A DNA stretch of 64,000 nt from Candidatus Brennerbacteria bacterium (GCA_016183535.1 JACPEK010000006.1:38015-102014); one strand, 5' to 3'. Shown: positions 36,374 to 59,506, counted from the first letter of the stretch. The notes: generated from the sequence alone by a model not told the origin. Numbers and translations: made by a program.

Positions 36374-37897
36374 TTAGCGGCACGTTTGAACAGTTGTATT
36401 GACTCCATATCTTCCGATAAGACCAACATTGCAATCAACGTCGCCATTATAAAATCTCCATCCCGTAGGGGCAACCACAAGAGGTCCTGGAAACGAATTT
36501 CCGCACGCCACGGCATTTGCGTCAAACGTACCGCCGATATTTTCCGACGGGCAATAGAGGAAACCGACGTTTGGCGAGCACGACCCGCCATCACTTTGTT
36601 TTCCGGTAGTGCCGAATGGAGTAGTTGAAAGACTTGCCGTGCAATAATAGTTGGTCGCGGTTTCGGATTTTGTGGCAACGCTGTCACAGTTATAATCGAA
36701 ACTTCCGTCGCCGCGGTTCGTGCTGTAATAGGCGGTCTGCCCGGGTTTCGCGTTCGCGTTCGAATCGTAGCAATCGTTCGTGTTAATGATGCTCCCCTGC
36801 GCAATCTGGTTATAACTGCCGCTTGAGTTCTTGTAGTAGGTGCGGCCGCTCACCGTGGTCACACTCCCCACGCACGCACTCGCCGCGCCAGACATCGAAT
36901 AGCCGTCCTGATCGCCGTCGGTCGCGACCGACTGATTTTGGTAGATATTGGCGTTTGCGTCGCTACAATCCCCGCCTGTCGTCACATAAGGCGAACCCGC
37001 GCCGACCGACACGCACGCAATCGTCGCGCTTCCATACCCGTCACCGTCGTTGTCTACATACCGGTCAGCGGCCACGCTCGCATTCGTATCATTGCAGTCG
37101 TACACGTTCCCGATCGCAGTGAAAGTGAGACGCTGACTCCAGGTAAGCAGATAGTTTCCGCCTTTTATTCGGTAATAAGTTCTCCCGCCCGCATACGAGG
37201 GAGCGCCGACACACACCGATCCCACAGGGGAAGCACTTGGCGTATAGGTGTAACCGTCCTGATCCTCGTCCCAATCCCATTCGACTGGTACGTTTTGATA
37301 GACCGAGGAGGAAGTATCGTCGCAATCGGTTCCGGACGAAGAAGCGGAATATCCCGAGGGGAGCGAGGAGCCGGAACACACGGACTGGGCCGATCCCGTG
37401 GTGTACGCGTCACCGTCCCCGTCGGGGTAGCCAGTAAGGTACTGCCACGTCGAAGCGCTCGAGTCATTACAGTCGCCCGCCTCGCTCCGGGTGCTCCTCC
37501 TCTGATAGGAGCTTGGCTGGGCATCCTGTGCCAGCATGTCGGTGCTATTTAGCGAGTACCCATCGTTATCCGCGTCTTTAATCCAAAGATTTGTCTGCTT
37601 GAGCTGGGCACCGCTCGCGGAAAGCGCGATCGTGCCGTTCACCGTGATGCTCTTTCCGGCATTCCATGCGATGGTCTGGTTCGCGTTTACGGTGAGCGTT
37701 ACGCCGGCGTTCACGGTGATGTTGCCGTTGTCCACACCATTCACCGAACCGGTAAACGCGCAGTTCGAGTTGACGATGTGATCCCCCCCAAGCGAGGGAG
37801 AACAATTCGCGAAGGCGCGCGGCGCAACGGAAAACCCCGCAAGCAAGATTGCTCCAAATATCCAAAATCTTAATGACGAATTAAAAACTGTAGACAT
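36374..37897 (-). CDS. secreted Cys-rich repeat protein with about 5 MopE-like putative metal-binding repeats (DC[ND]D...DxDGDGY...C)
   Basis: Signal peptide present. Repeats include GDCNDSSAS...PDGDGDAY..C, TDCDDTSSS...DEDQDGYTY..C, YDCNDTNAS...DNDGDGYGS..C and GDCSDANAN...DGDQDGYSM..C. Confidence 0.55.
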   Translation of the reverse strand: MSTVFNSSLRFWIFGAILLAGFSVAPRAFANCSPSLGGDHIVNSNCAFTGSVNGVDNGNITVNAGVTLTVNANQTIAWNAGKSITVNGTIALSASGAQLKQTNLWIKDADNDGYSLNSTDMLAQDAQPSSYQRRSTRSEAGDCNDSSASTWQYLTGYPDGDGDAYTTGSAQSVCSGSSLPSGYSASSSGTDCDDTSSSVYQNVPVEWDWDEDQDGYTYTPSASPVGSVCVGAPSYAGGRTYYRIKGGNYLLTWSQRLTFTAIGNVYDCNDTNASVAADRYVDNDGDGYGSATIACVSVGAGSPYVTTGGDCSDANANIYQNQSVATDGDQDGYSMSGAASACVGSVTTVSGRTYYKNSSGSYNQIAQGSIINTNDCYDSNANAKPGQTAYYSTNRGDGSFDYNCDSVATKSETATNYYCTASLSTTPFGTTGKQSDGGSCSPNVGFLYCPSENIGGTFDANAVACGNSFPGPLVVAPTGWRFYNGDVDCNVGLIGRYGVNTTVQTCR

Positions 37898-37899
37898 AA

Positions 37900-38388
37900 T
37901 TAAAATGCCGGCTGGAAACTAAGCACCACTCGCGACGCCTCGCCCCCGTCCGTTTTTTCAGCTGACGAACCTTTTGCCTCAATCGCAGCTTGATAAACCC
38001 TCTCCCGCGTGTCCGCGACCGTCCACGATCCCTCCCACACGCCGTCCGCGGCACTCCCCTCCTTCAAGGCGAGCGGAAATGGATGTTCACCCCCATCCAT
38101 AATCATGGTAACCTGCACCGATTCCACGAACCCCGCGTATCTCACCTTCACGCGCACACGCTGTTCCACTCCTTCCGCCACGCTCCCCAACGGATCAAAG
38201 CTCGCTTCGTAAATCTCGGGACCGGATTGATTACCACTCACGAAATAGGTATCGCGCTCCGGAAGCGGCGGAGCGGCGTTTCGTTCAGACAAAACCGGCG
38301 ACGTACCGCCGCGTCCGAAAAGAAAGATCGCCGCGCCGAGCGCAAGCGCGATAACGACCAAAATAATATTCTTCCGATCCACGTTCAT
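37900..38388 (-). CDS. small N-terminally anchored secreted protein, hypothetical
   Basis: One TM (IILVVIALALGAAIFLF), then about 130 aa of soluble sequence. Overlaps the neighbouring genes by 4 nt. Confidence 0.45.
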   Translation of the reverse strand: MNVDRKNIILVVIALALGAAIFLFGRGGTSPVLSERNAAPPLPERDTYFVSGNQSGPEIYEASFDPLGSVAEGVEQRVRVKVRYAGFVESVQVTMIMDGGEHPFPLALKEGSAADGVWEGSWTVADTRERVYQAAIEAKGSSAEKTDGGEASRVVLSFQPAF

Positions 38389-39542
38389 CGCTTCAAGAGC
38401 GTATCAAGGTTAAACCCTTCATGCGCGCCCGCCGCCGCGTTCGTCCACTCGCGCCAATCGAAGCGCGGGGCGGTCAGGCGGTAGCTCACTTCCAGCGAGC
38501 AATTTTCAATTTTCAATTTACAATTTTCAAAAAGAGAGGCGTAGATGGCGATGGTTTTGTTTTTATAATCTTTCTCATACCACGTCTTGCCGTCGAAGTT
38601 CGGCGTAAGAAGCACGGCAAGATTTGCAAATCCTTCTCCTTCAAGATTCGCCGCTTTCGCAAAAAGCCACAAGTCGGAACCCTCTTCGGCGGTTTTGAAA
38701 TCAAGAACGGCGGTTGGTAGTTGGTCGTTGGTCGTTGGTAGTTTAATAACGCCGGTGGTTTCTTCCTTCACCCCCGTCATGCCGGACACATAGGTGGCGT
38801 AGCGCTCTCCGCCGATCGTGTAAACCGGGTCAATCGTGCCCGCGTCGATTTTCCCCGACCCGCCGCCGAAGACCGCAACCAAGCTCGTCGTCGTGTTCCC
38901 CACGGACAAGAGGGCGGTTGGCGTCGAGGTTGCGATCCCGATCCTCCCCGTCGACGTGGCGATGGTGAGATAATCCGTCGAGCCGCTCCGCCGGATCACG
39001 AAGTTATTGACGTCGTTCGGGCCGTAGAACCATTGCTCGGTGCCGGAGGTGTCCTTCACGACGAGACCGCGATAATTTGTTGAGAGTCCCGAGAGGGTAA
39101 CAAGAGGGCCGGATGATCCGTCATACACATGGAACCGCGTGGCGGGACTCGCGGTGCCGACGCCGGCGCGCGCGTTCGTCGCGTCCACAAAGAGCACCGT
39201 GTTGGTGTTCCCCGATTCCTGAAACGTGTAGTTGCCCTTCCCCGCGATGGAGCCGAACACGCCCGCGGACACCTGGCCCGCCGAAACCGATGAGGCGCCC
39301 GCGCTCGTCTGGGAGGTGCCGTCCCCGAACTTCAGCGTACTATCCACATAGAGCACCCCCGCCGCCTGCGGCGTCGTGGTGCCGACCGAAAGACCGCCTA
39401 AAACGGTGGTGGTCGAGGCGTTCTGGATGCGGTAGGTGCCGCCGAAATCAAAATCGTTCTGCACACTGATCGCGTATACGAAAGACGCGAGTCCGAGGAA
39501 GAGTACAAGTGCGGCCGCGGCGAGATAGATTTTCGAGGTCAT
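38385..39542 (-). CDS. surface repeat protein, paralog of 42505..45450 (shared [RN]xG[IV][GA]T[ST]xP repeats and a conserved C-terminal domain ending RFDWREW)
   Basis: ORF trimmed to MTSKIYLAAAALVLF. The C-terminal roughly 130 aa, IDPVYTIGGERYATYVSG...YRLTAPRFDWREWT, aligns with the C-terminus of the 981-aa protein. Confidence 0.55.
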   Translation of the reverse strand: MTSKIYLAAAALVLFLGLASFVYAISVQNDFDFGGTYRIQNASTTTVLGGLSVGTTTPQAAGVLYVDSTLKFGDGTSQTSAGASSVSAGQVSAGVFGSIAGKGNYTFQESGNTNTVLFVDATNARAGVGTASPATRFHVYDGSSGPLVTLSGLSTNYRGLVVKDTSGTEQWFYGPNDVNNFVIRRSGSTDYLTIATSTGRIGIATSTPTALLSVGNTTTSLVAVFGGGSGKIDAGTIDPVYTIGGERYATYVSGMTGVKEETTGVIKLPTTNDQLPTAVLDFKTAEEGSDLWLFAKAANLEGEGFANLAVLLTPNFDGKTWYEKDYKNKTIAIYASLFENCKLKIENCSLEVSYRLTAPRFDWREWTNAAAGAHEGFNLDTLLKR

Positions 39543-39592
39543 AGGTTGCTTGGTGGTATTATACCATTCCCTTCTTTCCTTCTTTTTTATTT

Positions 39593-40210
39593 TTACCGAT
39601 TCACCACGAGCTTGCCGGCATCGCCCTTGCCGCATCCCTCAACACATTCAAACGCATACTCGCCGTAGGGATACGCCTGGAACTGGAAAACCGCCGTTTC
39701 ACCGCGCTTGACGCTTCGGTAGACGCCGAAGTCGGGAAAGCGGATCGCGTAGTCGCGGTCGGCCGCGGTAAAGGAAAAATCCACCACGTCGAGCTCGTTC
39801 ACCGCAACTAAGGACGGCGAGAGGTTGCCATCTTCACCGCGGAATGCGAACTTCCGAAGCATGACGTCTCCCACCTTCTGCACGGCGAACGGCACCGCGA
39901 TTTCGGAAGGTGCGGCGACTCTCGCCGTGGCATTCACGTCGGTAACAAACGCCGAGGTTTTGATCTTCTCCCGCGTGCCGCCCTCCACCGTCTTTAAGGC
40001 GTTCGCGTTGCCCGGGCGGAACACATCCTCGCCGCGCGCTTCGCCCGTCGGGCCGAATTCGCCCCTCCGCGGCCCGCTCGTGTTGTAGAAAGAAATTGCG
40101 ATGGCCGCGAGCGCCACCACGGCCGCAACGCCGCCCACCCATTTTATCTTGCCGCCCCGTTTTTCCGACGCGGGCGTTTCTTGCTCCATCACTCCGTCCA
40201 TGGTTGTCAT
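39593..40210 (-). CDS. membrane-anchored cupredoxin-like domain protein (paralog 1 of 3)
   Basis: N-terminal TM plus C-terminal GEYAFECVEGCGKGDAGKLVV, which fits the cupredoxin_1 / EfeO-N-like G-Y-F-C...G-h-V pattern. Confidence 0.5.
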   Translation of the reverse strand: MTTMDGVMEQETPASEKRGGKIKWVGGVAAVVALAAIAISFYNTSGPRRGEFGPTGEARGEDVFRPGNANALKTVEGGTREKIKTSAFVTDVNATARVAAPSEIAVPFAVQKVGDVMLRKFAFRGEDGNLSPSLVAVNELDVVDFSFTAADRDYAIRFPDFGVYRSVKRGETAVFQFQAYPYGEYAFECVEGCGKGDAGKLVVNR

Positions 40211-40232
40211 TGTACCACACCGCGCATACCGA

Positions 40233-41750
40233 TTATTGGGGTTTCACCTTCATTTGGATGTTGATGCGATCGAGGAACGGCGAATACCCGTCGGGACCCG
40301 CGGGATCGATTCGCGCCTTCCAGAAAAGCTTGACGCCCGCGGGATCCCGAAACTCGACTTCGCGCCCAACCTCGGCGCGCACCCACGCCGCGCCGTCGTT
40401 TGAAAGATAAAGCTCAACCACGCCGCCTTCTCGCGCCGCTTCAAACTCCGCAATAGTCGCGCGGCGCACCTCCGCGTCATAAGTGTTCAGGTTCTTCGAG
40501 ACAATCTCGCGCGGCGCGTCTTTTGAAAACCCGAGATCGCGGAATTCTTTCCATTCGGTTTCCCCGCCTGCGGTCGCAATCTTGAGGACAAGTCGCCCGC
40601 CCCCTTCCTGCCCGAGCGAGCCGCGGCGCGCACCCACGGGGAACGCCGCGCGGGTGAGGTCGAGCGCACCGGAAACATTGCCGGTGCCGTTCTCAAAAAG
40701 TTTTATAAGCTTCGGCTTGCCGTCTGTGAGACTCCATACATACCATCCGCTCTTCGCCCGCAACACGACCGGCTGAAAACCGCCCTCCATGGCGCGGATG
40801 CCGAAAAATCGAGAAACATTCTCCGCGCCGCTTCCGCGAATATGGTATGCGGTGCCTTCATAGCTCCCGTAGATTGCGATCCAGTCATTGTCGGTGCCGC
40901 CAAAACCGAGCGTGCCTCGGTAGGGAGACTGGAAGGGCGCACTCATGGGATCGAGCGCGTCCTCGAATTTCGCGCCGTCGAACGTAAACACCCTCCCCTC
41001 GTATGCGCCGTTTTTTTCGATCACTACGCCGACGAGCCACACCGTCTCGAGACCGCCGATCGAAACGGAGGATATTTTTTCTCCTGCGACCGCGGCGGGA
41101 AGCGGCGCGCGGTACCGTTCCTCCGCATAGGCGCTCCGCGCCGAGAACGGAGTGAAGGAGAGAGTGTTGCCTCGCTCGACGAGACAGTCGTTCCACAAGC
41201 ACACCGCGTCGCTCCCGTCCGCGCCGCGCTCGCGAAGCTCCGCGGCGGGGGGTACGGCGTTCTCGAGCGCGAAGCGCGGCGGGAAAGTGAACGCCGTCAC
41301 CGCCTCGTCGTGCGCAAGTGTTGTTTTCCCTTCATCGAGCCATGCAAAACTTGAGAAAAGATCGGAGAAGCTCGAGACGGTGAGCGCCTCGGGCGCGGTC
41401 GGCGGTGCGGATGAACCCTCTCCCCCGCCGCCTCCCACCACGCGGTAGAGCCGCTGGGGCAAACTCTCCCCCTCCGCCTCGAGCGCCTCAACGGTGCGGC
41501 GAATCGCTTCGGACGGCGCGGCCTCCCGCGACGAGCGAAGCGTTTCGACAAGCGAAGTTTTGATACTGCGCTCGAGGTACCAACGAAGCGCTTCGAGACT
41601 CGCGAGAAAAAGCGTCAGTCCCGCCGCGACGGCAACGAGCGTGATGAGCGCCACGACCGCGCGGGGAAGCCGCTCCCGCGCGCGCCGCGCCAGGCGAAAT
41701 ACGCGCTTGAGCATGCGGAACGAAAAAAATCTATACAATAAACTTTTCAT
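40233..41750 (-). CDS. membrane-anchored hypothetical protein (505 aa)
   Basis: One N-terminal TM (AVVALITLVAVAAGLTLFLA), then a large extracytoplasmic domain. Confidence 0.45.
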   Translation of the reverse strand: MKSLLYRFFSFRMLKRVFRLARRARERLPRAVVALITLVAVAAGLTLFLASLEALRWYLERSIKTSLVETLRSSREAAPSEAIRRTVEALEAEGESLPQRLYRVVGGGGGEGSSAPPTAPEALTVSSFSDLFSSFAWLDEGKTTLAHDEAVTAFTFPPRFALENAVPPAAELRERGADGSDAVCLWNDCLVERGNTLSFTPFSARSAYAEERYRAPLPAAVAGEKISSVSIGGLETVWLVGVVIEKNGAYEGRVFTFDGAKFEDALDPMSAPFQSPYRGTLGFGGTDNDWIAIYGSYEGTAYHIRGSGAENVSRFFGIRAMEGGFQPVVLRAKSGWYVWSLTDGKPKLIKLFENGTGNVSGALDLTRAAFPVGARRGSLGQEGGGRLVLKIATAGGETEWKEFRDLGFSKDAPREIVSKNLNTYDAEVRRATIAEFEAAREGGVVELYLSNDGAAWVRAEVGREVEFRDPAGVKLFWKARIDPAGPDGYSPFLDRINIQMKVKPQ

Positions 41751-41867
41751 TTATGACTTCAGTTCTCCATATGACATATGAGTCCTAGAGAACTTATCGG
41801 TCTTATTATAGAGAAACCCGCGGCGCGGCGCGGGTTTTTTTCGCGGTCTTCCATGACTTATTTAGTC

Positions 41868-42452
41868 TTACTCCACGATCATCGTCCCCGTTTCGCCGCG
41901 GGTCGCGTGGCCGGGTACGTTGCAGTAAAATTGGTATTCGCCGCGCGCCGAAGGCGCGTTGAAGGCGGTTACGCGGGTTTCCCCGGGCGCCAAGCCGACC
42001 GCCACCGCCGAAAGCGAAGAGTCTTCAAACGCGAAGACGTGCGTCTGGTTGTCCGTCGCGGTAAGGGTGAGCGTCACCACCTCGCCCCGCTTCACGCGGA
42101 ACGTCGAAGGCGCGATGCCCTCCGCGGACATCGAAATCTTGATCGAGTTGGTGGGCGCGTCGCGGAGCGCAATGGGGTCCGACTGCTGGGGTGCGTCGGG
42201 CGAACCCGGCGTTACGTCGAGCTTCACCGGCGCGCCGGTATTCTTGTTGACGACCTGCCCCTCCTTGGACACCGGACTCAAACCCGGCGCGGCAACAATG
42301 CCCTGCGACGTCGCGGTCGCGAGCGGCCCGGTTTCTTCCGCTGTCCGAACCCCCGAAGGAATTTTTATCGCGCCGCTGATCGCGAGGTAGATGATGACGA
42401 TACCTACAATCGCGCCGCCCACGATCCACCACGCCAATTTATTTCCGTTCAT
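41868..42452 (-). CDS. membrane-anchored cupredoxin-like domain protein (paralog 2 of 3)
   Basis: TM plus GEYQFYCNVPGHATRGETGTMIVE. Confidence 0.5.
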   Translation of the reverse strand: MNGNKLAWWIVGGAIVGIVIIYLAISGAIKIPSGVRTAEETGPLATATSQGIVAAPGLSPVSKEGQVVNKNTGAPVKLDVTPGSPDAPQQSDPIALRDAPTNSIKISMSAEGIAPSTFRVKRGEVVTLTLTATDNQTHVFAFEDSSLSAVAVGLAPGETRVTAFNAPSARGEYQFYCNVPGHATRGETGTMIVE

Positions 42453-42504
42453 GATGTTATTATAGCAAACCGATCTTGCGCCCTTTAGATGATTGGTCTT
42501 TTGT

Positions 42505-45450
42505 TTATTTGATGATGAGCGAAGGCCGCTCCGTTTGATCGGGCGCCAACGTCGGCCACTCTCGCCAGTCGAAGCGATTGCCGACGAGGCGATAGCTGAA
42601 CTCGATAGAATCAGTGGTTGGTGGTTGGTGGTTGGTGGTTGGTTGGGAACGGAAGATTATTTTGTTTCCGGAAATTTCGTAGGCGATGGAAACGGGGACG
42701 CCGTAGGGAGTGGCAAGCACTTGAACGGTGTCGCGGCTGAAGTCAACGGTCTTCCGCCACACCCACAAATCTGAACCGCTTTTTATCTTGTCGAAGTCGA
42801 TGACATACTCGTAGGTCGGTTCGGTAAACTCGAAACCTTTTGAATTTTGAGATTTCGGATTTGTTTCGGATTTCGGATTTCGGATTTCGGATTTGCGGAC
42901 GAGCGTAGCGCGGCCGACATATTCTTCCTTCACCCCTCCCGCGATGGCAGAAGCGTAGGTCGCGTATTTTTTCCCTCCGATCTCATAGAGCGGGTCGATG
43001 GTGGTGACCGTAAGCTTGTTCACGCCGGTGATGTTTTTCGAGTTCGCGTTGAGGTTGGTAACAAGCGCGCCGCCGAAGGAGAGGTTGCCATTCAAGGTGG
43101 AGGTGCCGGAGACGGTGAGCGTGGTGAAGCTCCCCGCGCCGCCGCCGCCCGTCACCGCGGAGTCCACGTAATCCTTCGTCGCCGCATGGGAAGCTTGTGT
43201 CGGCGTCCCCACGATCACCGGCTGGGAGAAGTAGCCGGTACCCGCGACGGTCAGGGCGTAGCCCGGCGTGGTCGAGGCGATACCGAAATTGTTGCCGGTG
43301 TTGAGGTAGCTCGCGCCGTTCGTGTCGAAGGTGATTTCGACACCTCCGTTCTCGAAAAGTTGGAAGTAGCCCGGGTCGCTCCCTCCCGCTTCTGCGAATT
43401 TTGCATACACATTCCCTTGATTTCCTGTAAGTTGAAGGTCGGGGTTGCCGCCGCCATTTTTGATATACACTCCTCCGGTCGGGGTCGCGCCTCCTTGAAT
43501 TTCGAGTTTGTACCCCGGACTCGCCGTCCCGATGCCGACCGAATCGCCGGAGGTCGTGAGAGAGACGTTCGCGCCGCTGTCGGTCCAACCGCTCCCGCTC
43601 GTTACCGTGGAGTCCACATAACTTTTCGTCGCGGCGTGGGAATTCGCGGTCGGGGTGCCGACAATCACCGGCTGGGAGAAGTAGCCGGCACCGACGGTCG
43701 TTAAAACATAGCCGGGAGACGAAGACGCGATGCCGATGTTGCCGGTCGCATTGATATGAAATCTCACGTCCGTGGTATTGCCGGTCGCAATCGAAAACAA
43801 GTCCTGTGATTTGATTACCAAGTCGTTCGGCCCACCGCCACCCTGCAAACCGATATCGTCATTTGCGGCAATCTGTCCCGCCAGTGTCGTATCCGCTCCG
43901 TCGTAGATATCAATCCGGTTGCCGAAGCGGGTCGCGCCTTTCACGTGGAGTTTCTGTTGGGGGTTCGTCGTTCCGATGCCGACGTTCCAACTTGTGGAAG
44001 ACGCGTAGAGATTTGAGCCGGAAAGCAACCACACGCCGCTCGAGCCGGAAGCGACGGAGTCCACATACGACTTCGTCGCCGCGCTCGTGCCTGTCGTCGG
44101 TGTGGGAACGGTAAGCTGACCCGTAAATCTCCCCGTGCCCACCACGTCGAGCGTATAGGCGGGAGTGGTGGTGGCGATCCCGACGTTGCCCGAGCTATCC
44201 ATCACCAAACTGTTCGCCGTTCCGGCGGTATTGATAGTAAATTTGTCGGCGCTGTGGCTATAGATAATCCTCCCGCGATACGCCTGATCGCCGGTCGTCC
44301 CGTCGGCGAAAAGTATGGAGCCGTCGCCCGCGCTGTAGATGGTAAGTCCTTGCGAACCGGCGCCGGAGCCCACTACGAGCTGATTCGCCGATGAGTCGAG
44401 TGAGGACGCGGGCGCGGTACCTACGGAAACCAAGCCGTTCACCTGCAAAGCGCTTGCGGGAGTGGTGGTCCCGATACCGACGTTGCCGGCTCCCGTAAGA
44501 GTCATGACTGTCTTTCCCCCAATAGTACTTGCGGCATCTCCCTGTTTCCACAAAGAGAAAATTATTTTGTTTCCGCCCGCAACCCCAGAATCATGTTCTG
44601 TGGTTATCATATGGGCATAATCGGTAGTGCCGTTATATCCGAAAACAATCTGCCGACCTCCCTGACTGCCGGTATTATCCATTCCCGACCTCAAAATAAG
44701 CGCATTAGTTGAGATTGTTGAAACAACATCAAGCTTTCCACTCGGACTCGTCGTCCCGATACCGACGTTGCCTTTGACATACAAACCCTCGGTGGGAAGC
44801 CCGCCCGTCGTCGTGGTCCCCACCGCGAGCGAAGCGGGAAACGCGAAATTCCCGTTTCCCTGCAAGCTCCCGAAGACGCCGGACGAGACATTCGCCGCGG
44901 AAAGCCCGCCCGAGAGCGTACCCACAAAAGCGCCGGTTGTCTGCACATTCCCTCCGACGAAAAGACGCGCGACGCCGCCCGTCGAGGTCGCTTTCTGCCC
45001 GATCGCCACATCACCGTACTGGTTCACGTCGAGCACCACATAGCCCGGAAGCGTGGCCGACTCGCGGTAGAGCTGGAGGTTGCCGAAGTTTCGCGACGAC
45101 CACACATAGGTGTTCCCCGACGTGAGGTTTTTGAGAGAAAGTCCGGGGTTCGTGGTCGAGGCCACCGTGAACACATACCCGAAGGTGGAGGGCCCGCTCT
45201 CGGTCGAGGTCGAGTTGAAAGTCGAAACCGGCGTCGAGGACGAGGCGCCGAAACCGATGTTCCGGTTCGCGTCCACCTGGAAGAGCCCGCCGCCCGAGCC
45301 GGGGGTTTGACCCGCAGACGGCCCGATAAAAGCGAATGCTATAGGCGCAACCGATATTTCAAATATCAAACACCACAAGAAAAACAGCCCAGTTTTTGAA
45401 AAGGAAAGATAGTTTTTAATTTTTAATTTTTGAATTTTATAAATAAACAC
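42505..45450 (-). CDS. large secreted fibre/adhesin-like repeat protein (981 aa) with at least 7 NVGIGTTxP...L[DE]V.G repeats, a conserved C-terminal domain, and two in-frame heptanucleotide repeat tracts
   Basis: Signal peptide present. Repeats include NVGIGTTSPSGKLDV, NVGIGTTTPASALQV, NVGIATTTPAYTLDVVG, NVGIGTTNPQQKLHVKG, NIGIASSSPGYVLTTVG and SVGIGTASPGYKLEIQG. The C-terminus ...IDPLYEIGGKKYATYASA...YRLVGNRFDWREWPT is shared with the 416-aa paralog. Confidence 0.6.
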   Translation of the reverse strand: MFIYKIQKLKIKNYLSFSKTGLFFLWCLIFEISVAPIAFAFIGPSAGQTPGSGGGLFQVDANRNIGFGASSSTPVSTFNSTSTESGPSTFGYVFTVASTTNPGLSLKNLTSGNTYVWSSRNFGNLQLYRESATLPGYVVLDVNQYGDVAIGQKATSTGGVARLFVGGNVQTTGAFVGTLSGGLSAANVSSGVFGSLQGNGNFAFPASLAVGTTTTGGLPTEGLYVKGNVGIGTTSPSGKLDVVSTISTNALILRSGMDNTGSQGGRQIVFGYNGTTDYAHMITTEHDSGVAGGNKIIFSLWKQGDAASTIGGKTVMTLTGAGNVGIGTTTPASALQVNGLVSVGTAPASSLDSSANQLVVGSGAGSQGLTIYSAGDGSILFADGTTGDQAYRGRIIYSHSADKFTINTAGTANSLVMDSSGNVGIATTTPAYTLDVVGTGRFTGQLTVPTPTTGTSAATKSYVDSVASGSSGVWLLSGSNLYASSTSWNVGIGTTNPQQKLHVKGATRFGNRIDIYDGADTTLAGQIAANDDIGLQGGGGPNDLVIKSQDLFSIATGNTTDVRFHINATGNIGIASSSPGYVLTTVGAGYFSQPVIVGTPTANSHAATKSYVDSTVTSGSGWTDSGANVSLTTSGDSVGIGTASPGYKLEIQGGATPTGGVYIKNGGGNPDLQLTGNQGNVYAKFAEAGGSDPGYFQLFENGGVEITFDTNGASYLNTGNNFGIASTTPGYALTVAGTGYFSQPVIVGTPTQASHAATKDYVDSAVTGGGGAGSFTTLTVSGTSTLNGNLSFGGALVTNLNANSKNITGVNKLTVTTIDPLYEIGGKKYATYASAIAGGVKEEYVGRATLVRKSEIRNPKSETNPKSQNSKGFEFTEPTYEYVIDFDKIKSGSDLWVWRKTVDFSRDTVQVLATPYGVPVSIAYEISGNKIIFRSQPTTNHQPPTTDSIEFSYRLVGNRFDWREWPTLAPDQTERPSLIIK
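42615..42642. repeat. (TGGTTGG)x4 perfect heptanucleotide tandem repeat inside the coding sequence (encodes QPTTNHQPPTT)
   Basis: Read directly from the sequence; an imperfect homolog lies at 38713..38740 in the paralog. Confidence 0.9.
42864..42891. repeat. (TTTCGGA)x4 heptanucleotide tandem repeat, plus degenerate flanking copies, inside the coding sequence (encodes KSEIRNPKSETNPKS)
   Basis: Read directly from the sequence. Confidence 0.9.
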
Positions 45451-45853
45451 TTAGAATTTTTAAACACTGCAGTTTTTGGAAATTTTAGCGAAGATTAACG
45501 TCAATTCGTGCGCTTCTTTCCAAAGATTTTTGCATTCTTCCTTTCTAACCTGATTAGCCGCCGCAATCATACGGAGCCAGTGTTTCGTTTCATTCGATTC
45601 TTTTTGTGAAATTCTTATTTTATTCCTAAAATCTTTCTTTGAGCTCGCCTGATTCGCTTCCATATAGTTAGCCCCGATGCTCGTAGCGGATCTCACGACT
45701 TGATCTATAAGCGACCTGTTTATGGAATTGCCGGGTAATTCTTTTGCGAAGTTTATCACATTCTCCCCAAATCTAGCCGATCTTTCCTCCAGGTCGTAAT
45801 TCATCAGGTTTAGAAATTAAAACATTAAAATTTATTTATAAAATTCAAAAATT
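45425..45853. mobile_element. AT-rich island bounded by a 23-bp perfect inverted repeat (aatttttgaattttataaataaa) carrying a four-helix-bundle protein gene
   Basis: Left arm 45425-45447, right arm 45831-45853 (reverse complement). The cargo ORF is 45460..45804. Confidence 0.5.
45460..45804 (-). CDS. four-helix-bundle protein (TIGR02436 / 23S rRNA intervening-sequence protein family; Avd homolog)
   Basis: ERSARFGENVINFAKELP...IDQVVRSATSIGANYMEANQASSKKDFRNKIRISQKESNETKHWLRM follows the family pattern. The gene is AT-rich. Confidence 0.7.
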   Translation of the reverse strand: MNYDLEERSARFGENVINFAKELPGNSINRSLIDQVVRSATSIGANYMEANQASSKKDFRNKIRISQKESNETKHWLRMIAAANQVRKEECKNLWKEAHELTLIFAKISKNCSV

Positions 45854-45864
45854 GGAAATTCACT

Positions 45865-46389
45865 TTACGGCAACACAATAAGTTGTCCCATTATCTTCGC
45901 TCCGGCCGGGCAAGAGTCGCGACACTCAAACCGGTACGTTCCCGCGGCGGTGGTCTGAAAACTCACCTGCTTCGTCTCCCCTTTCACCACTTTCTGGTAG
46001 AGCCCGCTCCATGGCATCGAGAAATCGTAGTCGCCGTCCTCTGCGGTGAGGCGAATCTGCACAAGATTGCCGAGCTTCACCGTCAAGGTCGAGGGGGCAA
46101 AGCCGTTGCGCGACACCGTCATTTCGAAGATGCCGAGCGTTTCCTCCCTCCCGGGCGCCGCGGGCGCCTCGATGGCGGGGGGTGTTTCCACCGCGTTTTC
46201 AGGCACCTCGGAGGTATACGCGGACGTTTCGAGTGAAACTGCCCCGCTCCCTTCCGTTTCCTCCTCCGCGCTCCCCGCCGGCCCCGCGCCTTCCGGCCCC
46301 GCGTCCCGCCCGGAAAACGCCCCGATGATCGCAACGAGCGCGATAAAACCCCCGAGTGCCGCGAGAATAATAAGTTGTTTGCGCGTCAT
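45865..46389 (-). CDS. membrane-anchored cupredoxin-like domain protein (paralog 3 of 3)
   Basis: TM plus GTYRFECRDSCPAGAKIMGQLIVLP. Confidence 0.5.
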   Translation of the reverse strand: MTRKQLIILAALGGFIALVAIIGAFSGRDAGPEGAGPAGSAEEETEGSGAVSLETSAYTSEVPENAVETPPAIEAPAAPGREETLGIFEMTVSRNGFAPSTLTVKLGNLVQIRLTAEDGDYDFSMPWSGLYQKVVKGETKQVSFQTTAAGTYRFECRDSCPAGAKIMGQLIVLP

Positions 46390-46484: not shown

Positions 46485-47444
46485 ATGCGAGGAATAAAAA
46501 TTGCTTTCTGGATCCTTATTGCGATTGTCCTTTCCCTCACGGCATTTGCCGCGCTCCGCGCCGGCGCCGCGACGAATGTTTCCTCCGCCTCAAACGAGCG
46601 CCTCGCGTGGGACGATGAGAATGGCTGGTGGGACTTCTACAGTACAAACACAGTAACAATCTACGGCACGCGCCTCGAGGGCTACGCCTCGTCCACAGTC
46701 GGCGATCTTTCGCTCGATTGCGCCACGACCGCTTCCGGCAACGTTTGCGCCTCGTCGAACTACGGCGTCTGCAATGGGCCGGGGCCGCATGCGACGGACG
46801 GCGCCTGCGCGTCGGGCGACGCCTCGGGCGATCTCACGGGGTACGCGTGGAACGACGCCATGGGATGGGTGAGCTTTAATTGCAACCAATCCTCGCACGG
46901 CGGCGCGAATAACTGTGTATCGTCGAACTATAAAGTTTCGATCGACGCGAACGGCAACTTCTCGGGCTACGCATGGAACGATGTCGCGGGATGGTTAAGT
47001 TTTAACTGCGCGGACGCGGGCGGAAGCTCGTGCGGCGACTCTAACTACAAGGTAATCACCTCATGGCGGGCCACTTCCACTTTCGCCTATCTCGAATCGT
47101 CGGTCTTCGACACGGAGCGGAGTGAGGGCGGCGCACTCCAGAGCATCGTCTGGCAAGGTTCGCAACCTTCCGGCGCCTCGGTGGATTTCCAGATCGCGAC
47201 TTCGAGCTCCTCTTCCGGGCCGTGGACGTTCTACGGCCCCGGCGGAAGCTCCGTCGCATATTATGGAGCGGAGTGTCCGCTCTCGGGTATTGCATCGCCC
47301 GGCGCGGGTCCCGACAAAGCGATTTGCGTGGATAAAAATGCGGGCGCGGCGCGCTATCTGCGGTATAAAATACGACTGCGGTCGAATCTGCTTCAGACAC
47401 AAACGCCGAGCGTTGATGACGTCATTCTCATTTGGACGAGATAG
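46485..47444 (+). CDS. secreted repeat protein (three G[YW]AWND..GW[VL]SFNC repeats), hypothetical
   Basis: Signal peptide present. Repeats at GWWDFYS, GYAWNDAMGWVSFNCNQ and GYAWNDVAGWLSFNCAD. Confidence 0.5.
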   Translation: MRGIKIAFWILIAIVLSLTAFAALRAGAATNVSSASNERLAWDDENGWWDFYSTNTVTIYGTRLEGYASSTVGDLSLDCATTASGNVCASSNYGVCNGPGPHATDGACASGDASGDLTGYAWNDAMGWVSFNCNQSSHGGANNCVSSNYKVSIDANGNFSGYAWNDVAGWLSFNCADAGGSSCGDSNYKVITSWRATSTFAYLESSVFDTERSEGGALQSIVWQGSQPSGASVDFQIATSSSSSGPWTFYGPGGSSVAYYGAECPLSGIASPGAGPDKAICVDKNAGAARYLRYKIRLRSNLLQTQTPSVDDVILIWTR

Positions 47445-47493
47445 GATTAGTTGATTAGTTACGCTACGCTTTAGTTGATTAGTTTCCAAAAAA

Positions 47494-47865
47494 ATGCCAA
47501 CCGGACTGGAAAATCTCAAAATTTATCAACTAGCAAAAGAGCTCGAGCTTGAGATTCATCAAGCCACCAAAAAATTCCCAATAGAAGAAAGATGGAGAAG
47601 TGTCGATCAGCTGAACCGCTCGGCCGCAGCCGTTTCAAACAATATCGCGGAGGCATATCATAAACTTTCAGTCATCCAGAGGGAGCACATATTACGAAAC
47701 ATCGCTATCGGGGAAGCTGAAGAAACAAAACGAAATATTGAACGTTGTTCAATGAAAACGTTTATTTCCAAAACAACTGCTGATGATATTGCTAATCGCT
47801 ATACAAGTCTTATTAAAGGCGTATATGGTTATATTCGATTTCTCAAAAACCAATCAACTAATTAA
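47494..47865 (+). CDS. four-helix-bundle protein (TIGR02436-like; Avd homolog), second copy
   Basis: LKIYQLAKELELEIHQATKKFPIEERWRSVDQLNRSAAAVSNNIAEAY. AT-rich. Flanked by imperfect inverted repeats (attagttgattagtt at 47446-47460 and 47471-47484; aaccaatcaactaatt at 47849-47864). Confidence 0.7.
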   Translation: MPTGLENLKIYQLAKELELEIHQATKKFPIEERWRSVDQLNRSAAAVSNNIAEAYHKLSVIQREHILRNIAIGEAEETKRNIERCSMKTFISKTTADDIANRYTSLIKGVYGYIRFLKNQSTN

Positions 47866-57748: not shown

Positions 57749-59506
57749 TCAGCCGGTCGCAACCTTTCGGACACTTTCCTCCGGTTCCCCATAAGGAATT
57801 CCTTTCGAGGTCCGGGCAAAAAGGTATGCGGGCGTGCGGTCGGCGCGGGCAATTTCTCTCCAGAAATAATAAGCCTTCCGGAGATGCGCATCCATTTGGA
57901 GCGCCACCTGCCGCACTTCGTGATTGACCGAGAATTTACTCCTCTGCCAGATCACGAATTCCCATTGAGCGAGGTTCCCGCCCATCTGAAACCCCACCAT
58001 GTTGCCGAGCGCGAACGCGTATTGGCATATTTCATGTGGAACGTCCGCGTTCCGCATGTCATGGTAGAGCTTTCGGTTCAGGGCATGCACCCAGGTAAAA
58101 TCCTGGTGCAACCACTGGGGCGCCGGTTTGTCGTATCGGTAGAACCCTATCTCCGGCGTGAGGTACGTGCGGAAATGGGTGCAGAACCCGTGCCGCTCTA
58201 AATCCCGCCAACCGCGGAAACTCATGATGCCGCGGAAGAAACCGGAGAAATACTCGAATTGGTTCGGAAGCTTATCGTGCGGTTCGCGACGTGCGGCGCT
58301 CCGATAAACACCGTCTTCTCCTCCGAAATCGCGGACGGCGACCCGCATCCTCGAGAAAAGGTGCAAATCTTCTTCTCCAACCCAATTCAAAATTTTCGGC
58401 CCCATAAGCCCGCTCGGATTGGAGAAAAAAAACCGCGCAACCGAAAGATACCGCCAATCTTCCCGCTTCGCGGAGGTAATTTCCACGTGCCGCAGGAACT
58501 GGTCACCGCCAATCTTCTCGGATTCTTCCATGATAAGCTCGGCGAGTGCGATATTTTCCGGAGTGTTATCGAGAAGAAGATGTTTAATGAGCTCCGGGAA
58601 CGCTTCGCCGCTTACCGACACCCCGAGTGAGGTTAGGGTCGCGGCCGGCAGAAGATTGCCGAGTAGATCGCATGCTTCTCCTTTTACCGCGGCGGCAAGT
58701 TCACGCTCTGGCGTTTTTTCCGCATGCGCTTCGCGGAAAAACGCCTCAAGATTTCCTTTACTCATCCTCATCTGGTATTGCGCGAGGATGGCACGCGTCT
58801 CGCGCTCCACACGCGCCGCAAAATCGCCGTGGAGACGAGAATCGAGATCTTCCCAGAAGGGGTAGAGTTGCGCCTTATCCATCCGCACGAAGCGGGTGGA
58901 AAGCTCAATGTAGCCGGCCCCGGGACGACCCCATTCGAACGATTTCGCGGCAAGAATGGAGATTCCCTCCACGCCGAAGGTGAGCGTCGCGCCGCGCGCG
59001 ATCGAATTATGTCCGTACTTATCGAGAAAGAGCGCCATAAACCATCTGAAACGCGGTGATGACGCGAGCTTCCTGAAATATACGGGGTCCGCAGATGCGC
59101 GGATGAATTTGCCGAAGAGCGTTCGATGCTCCTCGGAAAACGATACGAACGCTTCGAGCGAGGTGAGGTGATGCTCTCTGATAAATTTCTGCATCGCCTC
59201 CACCAAAAACTTAAGCTCCGCGGCGCTTGCGGGCTCTGACTTAAACCTCTCCGAGAAGCTCAAGAGAATGAGCGGGAGAAGATTATCCACGAAATGTCCG
59301 CGGATGCCCCGCGCGTTCTCCATCCGCGAATACATGGAAAGAAGCGCGGCGAGAACGGAAGGCGGGAAACTGAAGATGAAGAACACCCGCTTAGCCGCAT
59401 TCGTGAAAAACGGGCGAAGCGCGCGGGCTTCAAGCGGGGTGAATGTATACTCTGCCGCGGTGCGTACCCATCGGCGCGCGCCGGAAAAACCAGCTATACG
59501 TGGCAT
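57749..59506 (-). CDS. hypothetical protein (585 aa) with weak ThyX-like resemblance (degenerate RHR motif)
   Basis: HNSIARGATLTFGVEGISILAAKSFEWGRPGAGYIELSTRF loosely parallels ThyX [39 protein letters not shown]. Confidence 0.35.
   Translation of the reverse strand: MPRIAGFSGARRWVRTAAEYTFTPLEARALRPFFTNAAKRVFFIFSFPPSVLAALLSMYSRMENARGIRGHFVDNLLPLILLSFSERFKSEPASAAELKFLVEAMQKFIREHHLTSLEAFVSFSEEHRTLFGKFIRASADPVYFRKLASSPRFRWFMALFLDKYGHNSIARGATLTFGVEGISILAAKSFEWGRPGAGYIELSTRFVRMDKAQLYPFWEDLDSRLHGDFAARVERETRAILAQYQMRMSKGNLEAFFREAHAEKTPERELAAAVKGEACDLLGNLLPAATLTSLGVSVSGEAFPELIKHLLLDNTPENIALAELIMEESEKIGGDQFLRHVEITSAKREDWRYLSVARFFFSNPSGLMGPKILNWVGEEDLHLFSRMRVAVRDFGGEDGVYRSAARREPHDKLPNQFEYFSGFFRGIMSFRGWRDLERHGFCTHFRTYLTPEIGFYRYDKPAPQWLHQDFTWVHALNRKLYHDMRNADVPHEICQYAFALGNMVGFQMGGNLAQWEFVIWQRSKFSVNHEVRQVALQMDAHLRKAYYFWREIARADRTPAYLFARTSKGIPYGEPEESVRKVATG

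What the first reader, a model, noticed from the sequence alone, without database searches (positions are those of the whole stretch)
36374..46389. 10-kb minus-strand surface-protein block: three tandem pairs of an anchored cupredoxin-like protein plus a large secreted repeat protein
Reading 5' to 3' on the minus strand:
- Pair 1: cupredoxin-like 45865-46389 (then the IR-flanked 4HB island), followed by the 981-aa fibre-like protein 42505-45450.
- Pair 2: cupredoxin-like 41868-42452, followed by the 505-aa anchored protein 40233-41750.
- Pair 3: cupredoxin-like 39593-40210, followed by the 416-aa fibre-like paralog 38385-39542.
- After these come a 162-aa anchored protein and a MopE-like Cys-rich protein with five putative metal-binding repeats.

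The three small proteins share an N-terminal TM anchor and a C-terminal G-x-Y-x-F-x-C ... G-h-l-V motif typical of the cupredoxin_1 fold. The two fibre-like proteins share [RN]xG[IV][GA]T[ST]xP repeats and a conserved ~130-aa C-terminal domain (IDP[VL]Y[TE]IGG..YATY.S...YRL...RFDWREW). The triplicated cupredoxin-plus-surface-protein pairing suggests a dedicated partner (chaperone, redox, or metal-handling) for each exported protein.
Basis: partly seen in the sequence, partly recalled or inferred. Interest (0 to 1): 0.75.

Follow-up and report, generated by a model that had tools for sequence, protein, structure and literature searches.

The report
Conserved surface-fibre operon with copper-protein partners
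This 10-kb block from an ultra-small Patescibacteria (CPR) genome is a widely conserved operon that encodes phage-tail-fibre-like surface fibres next to membrane-tethered cupredoxin proteins (one with a copper site) and a beta-propeller protein, so the "plastocyanins" of these bacteria sit in a cell-surface fibre locus, although what they do there is still unknown.

Summary
All nine minus-strand genes exist at the stated coordinates. The three small proteins are homologous cupredoxin-fold proteins, and the two fibre-like proteins share a C-terminal domain.

Gene neighbourhoods are conserved in about 70 Patescibacteria species genomes, but as one ordered cluster rather than three equivalent pairs: [CxxC cupredoxin-like] - fibre B1 - [type-1-copper cupredoxin] - [membrane-anchored beta-propeller C] - [CxxC cupredoxin-like] - fibre B2 - D - E.

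- Of 72 fibre genes with downstream DNA, 45 have a cupredoxin gene within 700 nt (40 with His/Cys/His ligands) and 49 have C within 2.5 kb.
- Only A2 has a copper site (C-x4-H-x4-E-x3-M). A1 and A3 have no His and carry C-x3-C.
- The fibre shafts resemble phage tail fibres and Bdellovibrio MAT adhesins. The C-terminal cap matches no Pfam family, is common in Patescibacteria, and is essentially absent from phage collections.
- The cap subtype predicts the downstream partner: B1-type goes with copper cupredoxin/C, B2-type with D/E.

Best reading: a Patescibacteria surface-fibre (probably attachment) operon with dedicated membrane-tethered accessory proteins. The cupredoxins' role (assembly, anchoring or redox) is inferred, not shown. 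I rate it a new variant of a known kind, interest 0.6.

The parts
46485..47444 (+). F: secreted 319-aa protein with GW-type repeats (GYAWND..GW.SFNC), transcribed divergently from the cluster. Peripheral member.
   Evidence: ORF. No Pfam family. Homologues lie next to the cluster on the opposite strand in L024 and L066.
45865..46389 (-). A1: membrane-anchored cupredoxin-like protein of the CxxC class (Cys156-x3-Cys160, D-Y-D at residue 120, no His in the domain).
   Evidence: PF13473 at 34 bits. Weak COX2/NosZ cupredoxin hits. No His. Orthologues lie directly upstream of fibres whose mature N-terminus carries xF[ITN]GP[STC]: 10 of 11 against 5 of 33.
45831..45860 (.). Left arm of the inverted repeat flanking the 4HB gene.
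   Evidence: 30 nt, 93% complementary to 45418-45447.
45460..45804 (-). Four-helix-bundle protein (23S rRNA intervening-sequence protein family), an AT-rich insert flanked by inverted repeats between A1 and B1.
   Evidence: PF05635 at 70.5 bits, TIGR02436 at 83.9 bits. Same position in L002, and just upstream of the fibre in L013, also flanked by inverted repeats.
45418..45447 (.). Right arm of the inverted repeat. It overlaps the first codons of B1 as called from GTG 45450.
42505..45450 (-). B1: 981-aa Sec-exported fibre protein. It has a signal peptide followed by FIGPSAGQTPGSGGG, then a shaft with 7 xGIGTTxP repeats and 2 ATKxYVDS motifs.
   Evidence: PHROG tail-fibre families phrog_9942 (1.2e-13) and phrog_18345 (4.3e-13). 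PDB Bdellovibrio MAT fibre 8ojn, E=0.012. Motif counts.
42505..43026 (-). Conserved C-terminal cap domain of B1 (about residues 809-981), B1-type. A beta-sandwich with no Pfam family.
41868..42452 (-). A2: membrane-tethered type-1-copper-type cupredoxin. It has an N-terminal TM helix, a Pro/Ala/Gly-rich linker of about 65 aa, and a domain with His138, Cys177, His182, Glu187, Met191.
   Evidence: PF13473 at 41.5 bits, PF00127 at 22.2 bits. Ligand positions. C-x4-H-x4-E-x3-M in 49 of 51 orthologues. A cupredoxin gene starts within 700 nt downstream of 45 of 72 fibre genes.
40233..41750 (-). C: 505-aa membrane-anchored protein with a TM helix, a long helical stalk, a beta-propeller and a C-terminal beta-sandwich. 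It has one conserved Cys pair (184/189) and no conserved His.
39593..40210 (-). A3: membrane-anchored cupredoxin-like protein of the CxxC class (Cys189-x3-Cys193, no His in the domain).
   Evidence: PF13473 at 20.4 bits, below the cut-off. BLASTP to A1 1e-15.. The same position (between C and the second fibre) is occupied in L005, L053 and L006.
38385..39542 (-). B2: shorter fibre paralogue (385 aa from ATG 39542; the ORF extends to 39635) with a B2-type C-terminal cap.
   Evidence: B2-type caps are followed by D/E in 6 of 11 cases and by T1/C in 1 of 11.
37900..38388 (-). D: 162-aa membrane-anchored protein. Not a cupredoxin.
   Evidence: No family hit. hhalign against the cupredoxin profile gives probability 0.5%. 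Fused to E in L053, L069 and L062.
36374..37897 (-). E: 507-aa secreted Cys-rich protein with five DxDxDxY + DCxD repeats (MopE-motif-like).
   Evidence: PF11617 reaches only 10.2 bits against a cut-off of 27. Homologues follow B2-type fibres in L005, L053, L062, L068, L069 and L070.

Best explanation
The block is one copy of a conserved Patescibacteria envelope operon that makes cell-surface fibres together with their own membrane-tethered accessory proteins.

The fibres:
- B1 and B2 are Sec-exported, probably trimeric beta-helical fibres. Their shafts are related to phage tail fibres and to the Bdellovibrio MAT adhesins.
- The shafts vary greatly in length between genomes (about 0.3 to 2.6 thousand residues).
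- They end in a constant, family-specific C-terminal beta-sandwich cap.

The accessory proteins are encoded beside each fibre. All have an N-terminal transmembrane helix and a long linker or stalk, which would place their folded domain outside the membrane (inferred from sequence, not shown).
- Downstream of B1-type fibres: a cupredoxin with a conserved type-1-like copper site (A2) and a beta-propeller protein (C).
- Downstream of B2-type fibres: D and the Cys-rich protein E.
- Upstream of fibres with the FIGPS-type mature N-terminus: a His-less, CxxC cupredoxin-like protein (A1/A3 class).

Proposed mechanism (inferred, not shown): the accessory proteins act on the constant ends of the fibres. 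They would help them fold or trimerise, or hold them at the envelope, much as phage tail-fibre genes are followed by their assembly or tip-binding proteins. The variable shaft would be presented to the outside, most likely for attachment to host cells or surfaces.

The strict conservation of the copper ligands in A2 implies that a copper-dependent (redox or metal-binding) step is part of this. What that step is remains unknown.
For: Shown:
- Homology and fold of A1, A2 and A3.
- Fibre nature of B1: PHROG tail-fibre families at 1e-13. A profile of the family hits Bdellovibrio MAT fibre structures (8ond 7.3e-8, also 8ojn, 8ol4, 8oml). Seven xGIGTTxP repeats.
- The C-terminal cap is a large family without a Pfam model.
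- Seventy loci were found in GTDB species genomes, almost all Patescibacteria.
- Of 72 fibre genes with at least 900 nt downstream, 45 have a cupredoxin ORF within 700 nt (40 with the H,C,H,M columns), 49 have C within 2.5 kb, and 58 have either. Of 84 cupredoxin ORFs, 83 lie on the fibre's strand.
- The complete window order Cx-B-T1-C-Cx-B-D-E recurs in L005 and L053.
- Cap subtype predicts the partner. B1-type is followed by T1/C in 48 of 51 cases and by D/E in none. B2-type is followed by D/E in 6 of 11 and by T1/C in 1 of 11.
- The fibre N-terminal motif co-occurs with an upstream CxxC cupredoxin: 10 of 11 against 5 of 33, Fisher p=1e-5, not corrected for phylogeny.
- D and E are fused in three genomes.
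- Reverse sampling from six distant A2 homologues gave three canonical B-T1-C clusters, two cases behind another giant or fibre protein (one with a Peptidase_S74 end), and one stand-alone gene.
- C is a TM helix plus stalk plus beta-propeller.
- The cluster is flanked by housekeeping genes: UvrC, CysS, DnaB, SecDF.
- The cap has no tblastn hit in 50,697 phage records and appears in one of 2.9 million IMG/VR contigs.
Against: - No physical interaction, localisation or expression is shown. Synteny alone cannot tell whether A2 serves the fibre upstream or protein C downstream.
- Partner sets vary. Some loci have B-C without a cupredoxin (L011, L020, L021, L024, L067). Some have B-T1 without C (L017, L059, L061, L064). 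Some have the order B-C-T1 (L026, L039, L047, L058).
- A2-type genes also occur alone (L073) or behind fibres with a different end (L077). This argues against a strictly cap-specific interaction.
- A conserved redox-type copper site is not needed for a purely structural or chaperone role.
- Host attachment is inferred from analogy with MAT and tail fibres, and from the epibiotic lifestyle known for a few cultivated Patescibacteria.
Confidence: 0.55

Rival explanations
1. The A2-type cupredoxin is an ordinary periplasmic-side electron carrier, for example the donor to NirK, as proposed in the Patescibacteria literature. Its position in the fibre cluster would then be conserved synteny without a functional link.
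For: - The three equatorial type-1 ligands are conserved.
- The best PDB matches are the cupredoxin domains of NirK and NosZ.
- Sources name family members 'plastocyanin'.
- Papers propose a cupredoxin-to-NirK route in CPR (PMC5581439; PMC12931201).
- One A2 homologue is stand-alone (L073).
Against: - The adjacency holds in 45 of 72 fibre loci from many lineages, with 83 of 84 genes co-oriented and gaps mostly under 150 nt.
- No redox enzyme is encoded in the cluster or elsewhere in the parts of the window that I scanned.
- Protein C has no conserved His or other metal-site signature.
- NirK was reported in only 4 of 34 CPR genomes, while the cluster is widespread.
- A1 and A3 lack copper ligands altogether.
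Confidence: 0.15
2. One reading: three tandem pairs in which each cupredoxin-like protein is the dedicated chaperone or handler of the large protein encoded immediately downstream (A1->B1, A2->C, A3->B2).
For: - T1->C adjacency is as frequent as B->T1.
- A CxxC cupredoxin lies directly upstream of the fibre in 10-11 loci and co-occurs with the fibre's N-terminal motif.
- A3-like genes precede the second fibre in L005, L006 and L053.
Against: - Only 11 of 43 fibres have any cupredoxin upstream.
- C occurs without a preceding cupredoxin in at least five loci, and the order is B-C-T1 in four.
- B2's recurrent partners are D and E downstream.
- The three proteins are of two chemically different classes.
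Confidence: 0.15
3. An extracytoplasmic redox or maturation relay. The copper cupredoxin, together with the CxxC cupredoxin-like proteins, would oxidise or cross-link the exported fibre and Cys-rich proteins, for example by forming disulfides, in organisms that lack quinone-linked Dsb systems and respiratory chains.
For: - A1/A3 have C-x2-3-C motifs in all 23 members of their class.
- A2 has a conserved copper site.
- E has 18 Cys. C has a nearly invariant Cys pair. Many orthologous fibres start with Cys-rich N-terminal modules.
Against: - This is purely circumstantial.
- B1 itself has almost no Cys.
- L082 and L083 encode a DsbA-like protein nearby, so at least some of these organisms have conventional thiol oxidases.
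- No precedent was tested here.
Confidence: 0.1
4. A prophage or tailocin remnant, meaning tail-fibre genes of viral origin with their accessory genes.
For: The shaft resembles phage tail fibres. The fibre-then-small-gene order recalls phage fibre and assembly-protein pairs (my own knowledge).
Against: - No other phage gene lies in the block, and the flanks are housekeeping genes.
- The cap domain has no hit in 50,697 phage records and appears in a single IMG/VR contig.
- The cluster is syntenic across about 70 species genomes.
Confidence: 0.03

Closest known systems
Bdellovibrio bacteriovorus MAT (mosaic adhesive trimer) fibres (Caulton et al. 2024, PMC10769870) and phage tail fibres
   Same: - Long exported proteins built from xG[IV]GTTxP / ATKxYVD-type repeat modules.
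- The family profile hits MAT crystal-structure sequences (8ond 7.3e-8), and B1 hits PHROG tail-fibre families.
- Several paralogous fibres per genome, in an organism that presumably lives on other cells.
- A beta-sandwich domain at the C-terminal end.
   Different: - In MATs the N-terminal domain is constant and the C-terminal tip is swapped. Here the C-terminal cap is the constant part, and it comes in two subtypes.
- No Peptidase_S74 domain in B1 or B2.
- The cap has no sequence match in the PDB outside the shaft region, and only weak fold matches.
- No cupredoxin or propeller partner is mentioned in the passages of the MAT paper that I read.
Small blue copper proteins (plastocyanin, auracyanin and rusticyanin type; Pfam Cupredoxin_1/Copper-bind) and the N-terminal cupredoxin domain of Hyphomicrobium NirK (2dv6)
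   Same: A2 has the fold, the His...Cys-x4-His ligand pattern and a membrane tether. The tether is like those of halocyanin, auracyanin and sulfocyanin (my own knowledge).
   Different: - The residue aligned with the axial Met of 2dv6 is a conserved Glu (C-x4-H-x4-E), with a conserved Met four residues later.
- The genomic context is a fibre operon, not a respiratory or denitrification operon.
- A1 and A3 lack His ligands entirely and carry CxxC instead.
CuA domains of cytochrome oxidase subunit II and NosZ
   Same: A1 and A3 give weak hits to COX2/CoxB and to the NosZ C-terminal domain. They have a two-cysteine loop, C-x3-C or C-x-S-C-G-G, reminiscent of CuA's C-S-E-x-C-G (the motif is from my own knowledge).
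   Different: - There is no His in the domain, so no CuA site.
- All scores are far below the family cut-offs.
- The neighbouring propeller C has no conserved His, so it is not a split NosZ.
Phage tail-fibre assembly or tip-binding proteins (Tfa, gp38 type) encoded just downstream of the fibre gene
   Same: The gene order is large fibre, then a small conserved gene. The partner type follows the type of the fibre's C-terminal domain.
   Different: - No sequence similarity: there is no PHROG tail hit for A1, A2 or A3.
- The partners here are membrane-anchored and one is a copper protein.

Membership tests
Cupredoxin_1 (PF13473) / cupredoxin fold | Significant match to the family HMM | tested here: met
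   A1 scores 34 bits and A2 41.5 bits against a gathering score of 27. A3 scores 20.4 bits (below), but BLASTP to A1 gives 1e-15.
Type-1 (blue) copper proteins | Equatorial ligands His ... Cys ... His present and conserved | tested here: met
   Met for A2 only: His138, Cys177, His182. My four ligand columns, H, C, H and Met191, are all present in 53 of 89 cupredoxin ORFs in the related loci, and in 40 of the 45 directly downstream of a fibre.
Type-1 (blue) copper proteins | Same ligands in A1 and A3 | tested here: not met
   Neither A1 nor A3 has a His in the last 100 residues. They carry C-x3-C instead.
Type-1 (blue) copper proteins | Axial Met at the canonical loop position | tested here: inconclusive
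   The position aligned with the axial Met of 2dv6 is Glu187, and Glu holds that position in 49 of 51 orthologues. A conserved Met lies four residues later. Which residue ligates copper needs a structure.
Type-1 (blue) copper proteins | Binds copper and is redox active | not testable with these tools
   Needs purified protein with UV-vis/EPR and a potential measurement.
MAT / tail-fibre-like trimeric fibres | Sequence similarity of the shaft repeats to known fibres | tested here: met
   phrog_9942 at 1.2e-13 and phrog_18345 at 4.3e-13. The family profile against 8ond gives 7.3e-8. B1 alone against 8ojn gives E=0.012.
MAT / tail-fibre-like trimeric fibres | Constant N-terminal anchor domain with a variable, swappable C-terminal tip | tested here: not met
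   Here the C-terminal cap is the conserved element (33-59% identity across 70 species genomes). N-termini beyond the signal peptide differ, except for the FIGPS subgroup.
MAT / tail-fibre-like trimeric fibres | C-terminal Peptidase_S74 intramolecular chaperone (S74 subfamily) | tested here: not met
   No PF13884 hit in B1 or B2. An S74 fragment precedes an A2 homologue in L077.
MAT / tail-fibre-like trimeric fibres | Trimeric fibre on the cell surface | not testable with these tools
   Needs a multimer prediction, EM or labelling.
MopE-type putative metal-binding motif (PF11617), for E | Significant HMM match | tested here: not met
   E=0.94, 10.2 bits against a cut-off of 27. There are five DxDxDxY + DCxD repeats at motif level only.
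NosZ-like propeller plus cupredoxin enzyme (considered because A1/A2 hit the NosZ cupredoxin domain and C is a propeller) | Histidine-rich copper site in the propeller | tested here: not met
   There is no invariant or nearly invariant His in the 13-sequence alignment of C, and the window's C has only 2 His. NosZ model scores are 25-28 bits against a cut-off of 625.
Four-helix-bundle / 23S rRNA intervening-sequence protein (TIGR02436, PF05635) | HMM match above the cut-off, and flanking inverted repeats | tested here: met
   83.9 bits against 24 and 70.5 bits against 33.8. A 30-nt inverted repeat at 93% complementarity.

The most novel reading that the evidence does not exclude
The membrane-tethered copper cupredoxin, which has an unusual conserved Glu at the axial position, works with the His-less CxxC cupredoxin-like proteins as a dedicated extracytoplasmic redox module for the surface fibres of Patescibacteria. 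It would either mature the fibres and their Cys-rich partners oxidatively, or exchange electrons at the contact site with the host cell. On this reading, the 'plastocyanins' of these respiration-poor bacteria belong to the attachment apparatus rather than to a respiratory chain.
Probability: 0.12. Interest if true: 0.85.

Novelty: new variant of a known kind. Interest (0 to 1): 0.6.

Why it matters
Most Patescibacteria outside the Saccharibacteria are uncultivated, and how they touch their hosts is unknown.

- This cluster gives concrete, widely conserved candidates: MAT/tail-fibre-like fibres with a constant cap, plus four classes of membrane-tethered partners.
- It recurs in lineages labelled Brenner-, Jorgensen-, Lipton-, Azam-, Colwell-, Falkow-, Kuenen- and Doudnabacteria and Paceibacterota.
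- It changes the context of the single-domain cupredoxins of these bacteria. Metabolic reconstructions have read them as electron donors to NirK (PMC5581439, PMC12931201). Here they sit, co-oriented and tightly spaced, inside a surface-fibre operon.
- The C-terminal cap, protein C, D and the CxxC cupredoxin-like class have no Pfam or NCBIfam match here and would merit family definitions.
- If the copper site has a role in fibre maturation or host contact, that would be a new use of the cupredoxin fold.

Tried and rejected
1. NosZ-like split enzyme (cupredoxin plus propeller). Rejected: C has no conserved His and the model scores are negligible.
3. D as a fourth, divergent cupredoxin. Rejected by hhalign, probability 0.5%.
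4. Prophage origin. Rejected.
6. The promoter/terminator scan gave nothing decisive about operon boundaries.
7. The exhaustive representative search with alignment A2 gave counts inflated by the repeat part of the profile: 2364 hits at 1e-30 or better, 17725 at 1e-10 or better. Only the top list was used.
8. Literature searches found no description of this cluster. The terms were cupredoxin, plastocyanin or blue copper combined with Patescibacteria, CPR or Parcubacteria, and tail fiber combined with Patescibacteria. The library is limited to open-access text.
9. Prediction of complexes was not possible.

Full report
**1. What is there**

The window comes from a Candidatus Brennerbacteria (Patescibacteria/CPR) metagenome-assembled genome. 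Protein C and A2 are identical to NCBI entries from a 105-kb contig. Between 36374 and 46389 the minus strand carries ten co-directional ORFs, separated by -43 to 117 nt:

| Name | Coordinates | Length |
|---|---|---|
| A1 | 45865-46389 | 174 aa |
| 4HB (four-helix-bundle gene) | 45460-45804 | 114 aa |
| B1 | 42505-45450 | 981 aa |
| A2 | 41868-42452 | 194 aa |
| C | 40233-41750 | 505 aa |
| A3 | 39593-40210 | 205 aa |
| B2 | 38385-39542 (ORF extends to 39635) | 385 aa (416 aa) |
| D | 37900-38388 | 162 aa |
| E | 36374-37897 | 507 aa |

A secreted GW-repeat protein, F (46485-47444), is transcribed divergently. The flanks are housekeeping genes: SecDF, a P-type ATPase, an FAD oxidase and UvrC on one side, and CysS, DnaB and RecR on the other.

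**2. The three small proteins**

- Pfam Cupredoxin_1 is above threshold for A1 (34 bits) and A2 (41.5 bits) and below it for A3 (20.4 bits; cut-off 27).
- The three are mutually homologous: A1/A3 1e-15, A1/A2 3e-9, A2/A3 2e-5.
- The G-Y-F-C...G...V columns are invariant.
- They are the only cupredoxin ORFs in the 64-kb window.

They are not equivalent.

- A2 has His138, Cys177 and His182. Its PDB alignments place these on the copper ligands of the N-terminal cupredoxin of Hyphomicrobium NirK (2dv6).
- In that alignment the axial Met of 2dv6 faces Glu187 of A2. The pattern C-x4-H-x4-E-x3-M holds in 49 of 51 orthologues.
- A1 and A3 have no histidine in their last 100 residues. They carry Cys-x3-Cys.
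- All 23 members of that class in related loci have C-x2-3-C, and most also have a D-x-D-Y-D motif.

**3. The fibres**

- B1 has a signal peptide followed by FIGPSAGQTPGSGGG, then seven xG[IV]G[TA]T[ST]xP repeats and two ATKxYVDS motifs.
- It matches PHROG tail-fibre families at about 1e-13.
- A profile of the family matches the crystal-structure sequences of the Bdellovibrio MAT adhesin fibres: 8ond at 7.3e-8, also 8ojn, 8ol4 and 8oml (paper PMC10769870).
- B1 and B2 share the last ~170 residues (9e-17).

This C-terminal cap has the following properties.

- It has no Pfam, NCBIfam or PHROG match.
- A word-index search found 40 homologues, all without a Pfam domain.
- Its invariant core is NK.tV.TIDP.Y.i.g..Y...GGVKEE..G...DF..GsDLW...SYRL.g.R.D...W.
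- In an exhaustive search of 1.84 billion representatives, about 125 of the best 150 hits carry it at the extreme C-terminus of proteins 260-3400 residues long. The total counts are inflated by the repeat part of the profile.
- It has no tblastn hit in 50,697 phage records and occurs in one of 2.9 million IMG/VR contigs. That contig has no partner genes.

**4. Protein C, D and E**

- C has no family match.
- Its AF2 model (pLDDT 83.7) shows an N-terminal TM helix, a long helical stalk, a beta-propeller and a C-terminal beta-sandwich.
- The 13-sequence alignment has a nearly invariant Cys pair (184/189) and no conserved His. A NosZ-, PQQ- or copper-oxidase-type site is therefore not supported.
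- D is a small anchored protein and is not a cupredoxin (hhalign probability 0.5%). In L053, L069 and L062 it is fused to E.
- E has 18 Cys and five DxDxDxY + DCxD repeats. The Pfam MopE-motif model is not significant.

**5. Conservation elsewhere**

A scan of one genome per GTDB species with the cap alignment returned 70 loci. Almost all are Patescibacteria: Paceibacterota, Jorgensen-, Lipton-, Azam-, Colwell-, Falkow- and Doudnabacteria. A few carry doubtful bin labels. I annotated their six-frame ORFs with HMMs built from the window proteins.

- The dominant order is fibre -> copper cupredoxin -> C, with gaps mostly under 150 nt.
- L005 and L053 repeat the entire window order, Cx-B-T1-C-Cx-B-D-E.
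- Of 72 cap-bearing fibre genes with at least 900 nt of downstream DNA, 45 have a cupredoxin ORF starting within 700 nt, and 40 of those have the H,C,H,M columns. C lies within 2.5 kb in 49, and 58 have one or the other. Of 84 cupredoxin ORFs, 83 are on the fibre's strand.
- A cupredoxin upstream of the fibre occurs for only 11 of 43 fibres, and 10 of those are the CxxC class.
- The upstream CxxC cupredoxin goes with the xF[ITN]GP[STC] mature N-terminus: 10 of 11 against 5 of 33, Fisher p=1e-5. These may form a single clade, so this is co-occurrence, not proof.
- Cap subtype predicts the downstream partner. B1-type is followed by T1/C in 48 of 51 cases and never by D/E. B2-type is followed by D/E in 6 of 11 and by T1/C in 1 of 11.

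For the reverse test I looked up six distant A2 homologues (44-54% identity):

- three lie in canonical B-T1-C clusters (L075, L078, L082);
- one follows a Peptidase_S74-ended fibre fragment, with a C homologue nearby (L077);
- one follows a 1474-aa protein (L080);
- one stands alone (L073, from the same MAG as L053).

**6. Interpretation**

What is shown is a conserved, cellular (non-phage) Patescibacteria operon. It couples tail-fibre/MAT-like exported fibres carrying a constant C-terminal cap to four classes of proteins with an N-terminal TM helix and a long linker or stalk.

What is inferred:

- The fibres are trimeric and surface-exposed.
- They serve attachment. This rests on analogy with MAT and tail fibres, and on the epibiotic lifestyle reviewed in PMC11665869.
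- The neighbours act on the fibres' constant ends, in assembly or anchoring.

The constant end is C-terminal. This is the reverse of MATs, where the N-terminal domain is constant and the tips are swapped. It resembles the way conserved C-terminal chaperone modules cap otherwise diverse phage fibres (my own knowledge).

The copper ligands are strictly conserved in A2. I read this as a sign that copper chemistry matters, but I cannot say for what.

The literature reads CPR cupredoxins as NirK electron donors. This remains a live rival, but it does not explain the co-oriented adjacency or the His-less paralogues. I also found no redox enzyme in the parts of the window that I scanned.

**7. Verdict**

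- I found no description of this cluster in the searchable literature.
- I class it as a new variant of a known kind, namely surface adhesin-fibre loci with unprecedented cupredoxin and propeller partners.
- Interest 0.6. Confidence in the operon description is about 0.85, and in the proposed function 0.55.

Noticed in passing
window 45418-45860 and 47446-47865; L002 4263-4731; L013 2201-2727: Both four-helix-bundle (23S rRNA intervening-sequence protein family) genes in the window are small AT-rich inserts flanked by inverted repeats: 30 nt at 93% complementarity, and 15 nt at 93%. The same arrangement, at the same place just upstream of the fibre gene, occurs in L002 and L013. The right arm of the first repeat overlaps the GTG start codon of B1, so the insert may affect the processing or translation of B1.
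   Followed up: partly
window 41868-42452 (A2 residues 177-191) and orthologues in L002-L071: The copper loop of the A2 family reads C-x4-H-x4-E-x3-M in 49 of 51 sequences. The conserved Glu aligns with the axial Met of the NirK N-terminal cupredoxin 2dv6, which suggests an unusual axial ligand.
   Followed up: partly
L053 17499-19397; L069 10576-12195; L062 2582-3799: The D domain and the Cys-rich E protein, which are separate genes in the window, are fused into one protein in three other genomes. This supports a D-E functional unit downstream of B2-type fibres.
   Followed up: partly
L077 9434-10651: An A2-type copper cupredoxin gene lies directly downstream of a fibre fragment ending in a Peptidase_S74 intramolecular-chaperone domain. 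The contig also encodes a Por_Secre_tail protein. The cupredoxin-after-fibre link therefore may extend beyond the cap family, and possibly beyond Patescibacteria.
   Followed up: no
window 46485-47444 (+): F is a secreted protein with three GYAWND..GW.SFNC-type repeats and no family match. It is a recurrent divergent neighbour of the cluster (L024, L066), with weaker relatives in L016, L041, L064 and L070.
   Followed up: partly
window 20853-22574 (-) and 22319-23650 (-): A 573-aa protein has a sub-threshold match to the GlxA (copper radical oxidase) beta-barrel domain (22.2 bits against a cut-off of 27). It overlaps or abuts a TrwB/TraG-like type IV secretion coupling protein.
   Followed up: no
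L056, L060 (labelled Pacearchaeota): Cap-bearing fibre genes occur on contigs binned as DPANN archaea, without any of the partner genes. This could be mis-binning or transfer between domains.
   Followed up: no
window 57749-59506 (-): A 585-aa ORF has two stretches matching the ThyX (Thy1) family. This is much longer than a usual ThyX.
   Followed up: no
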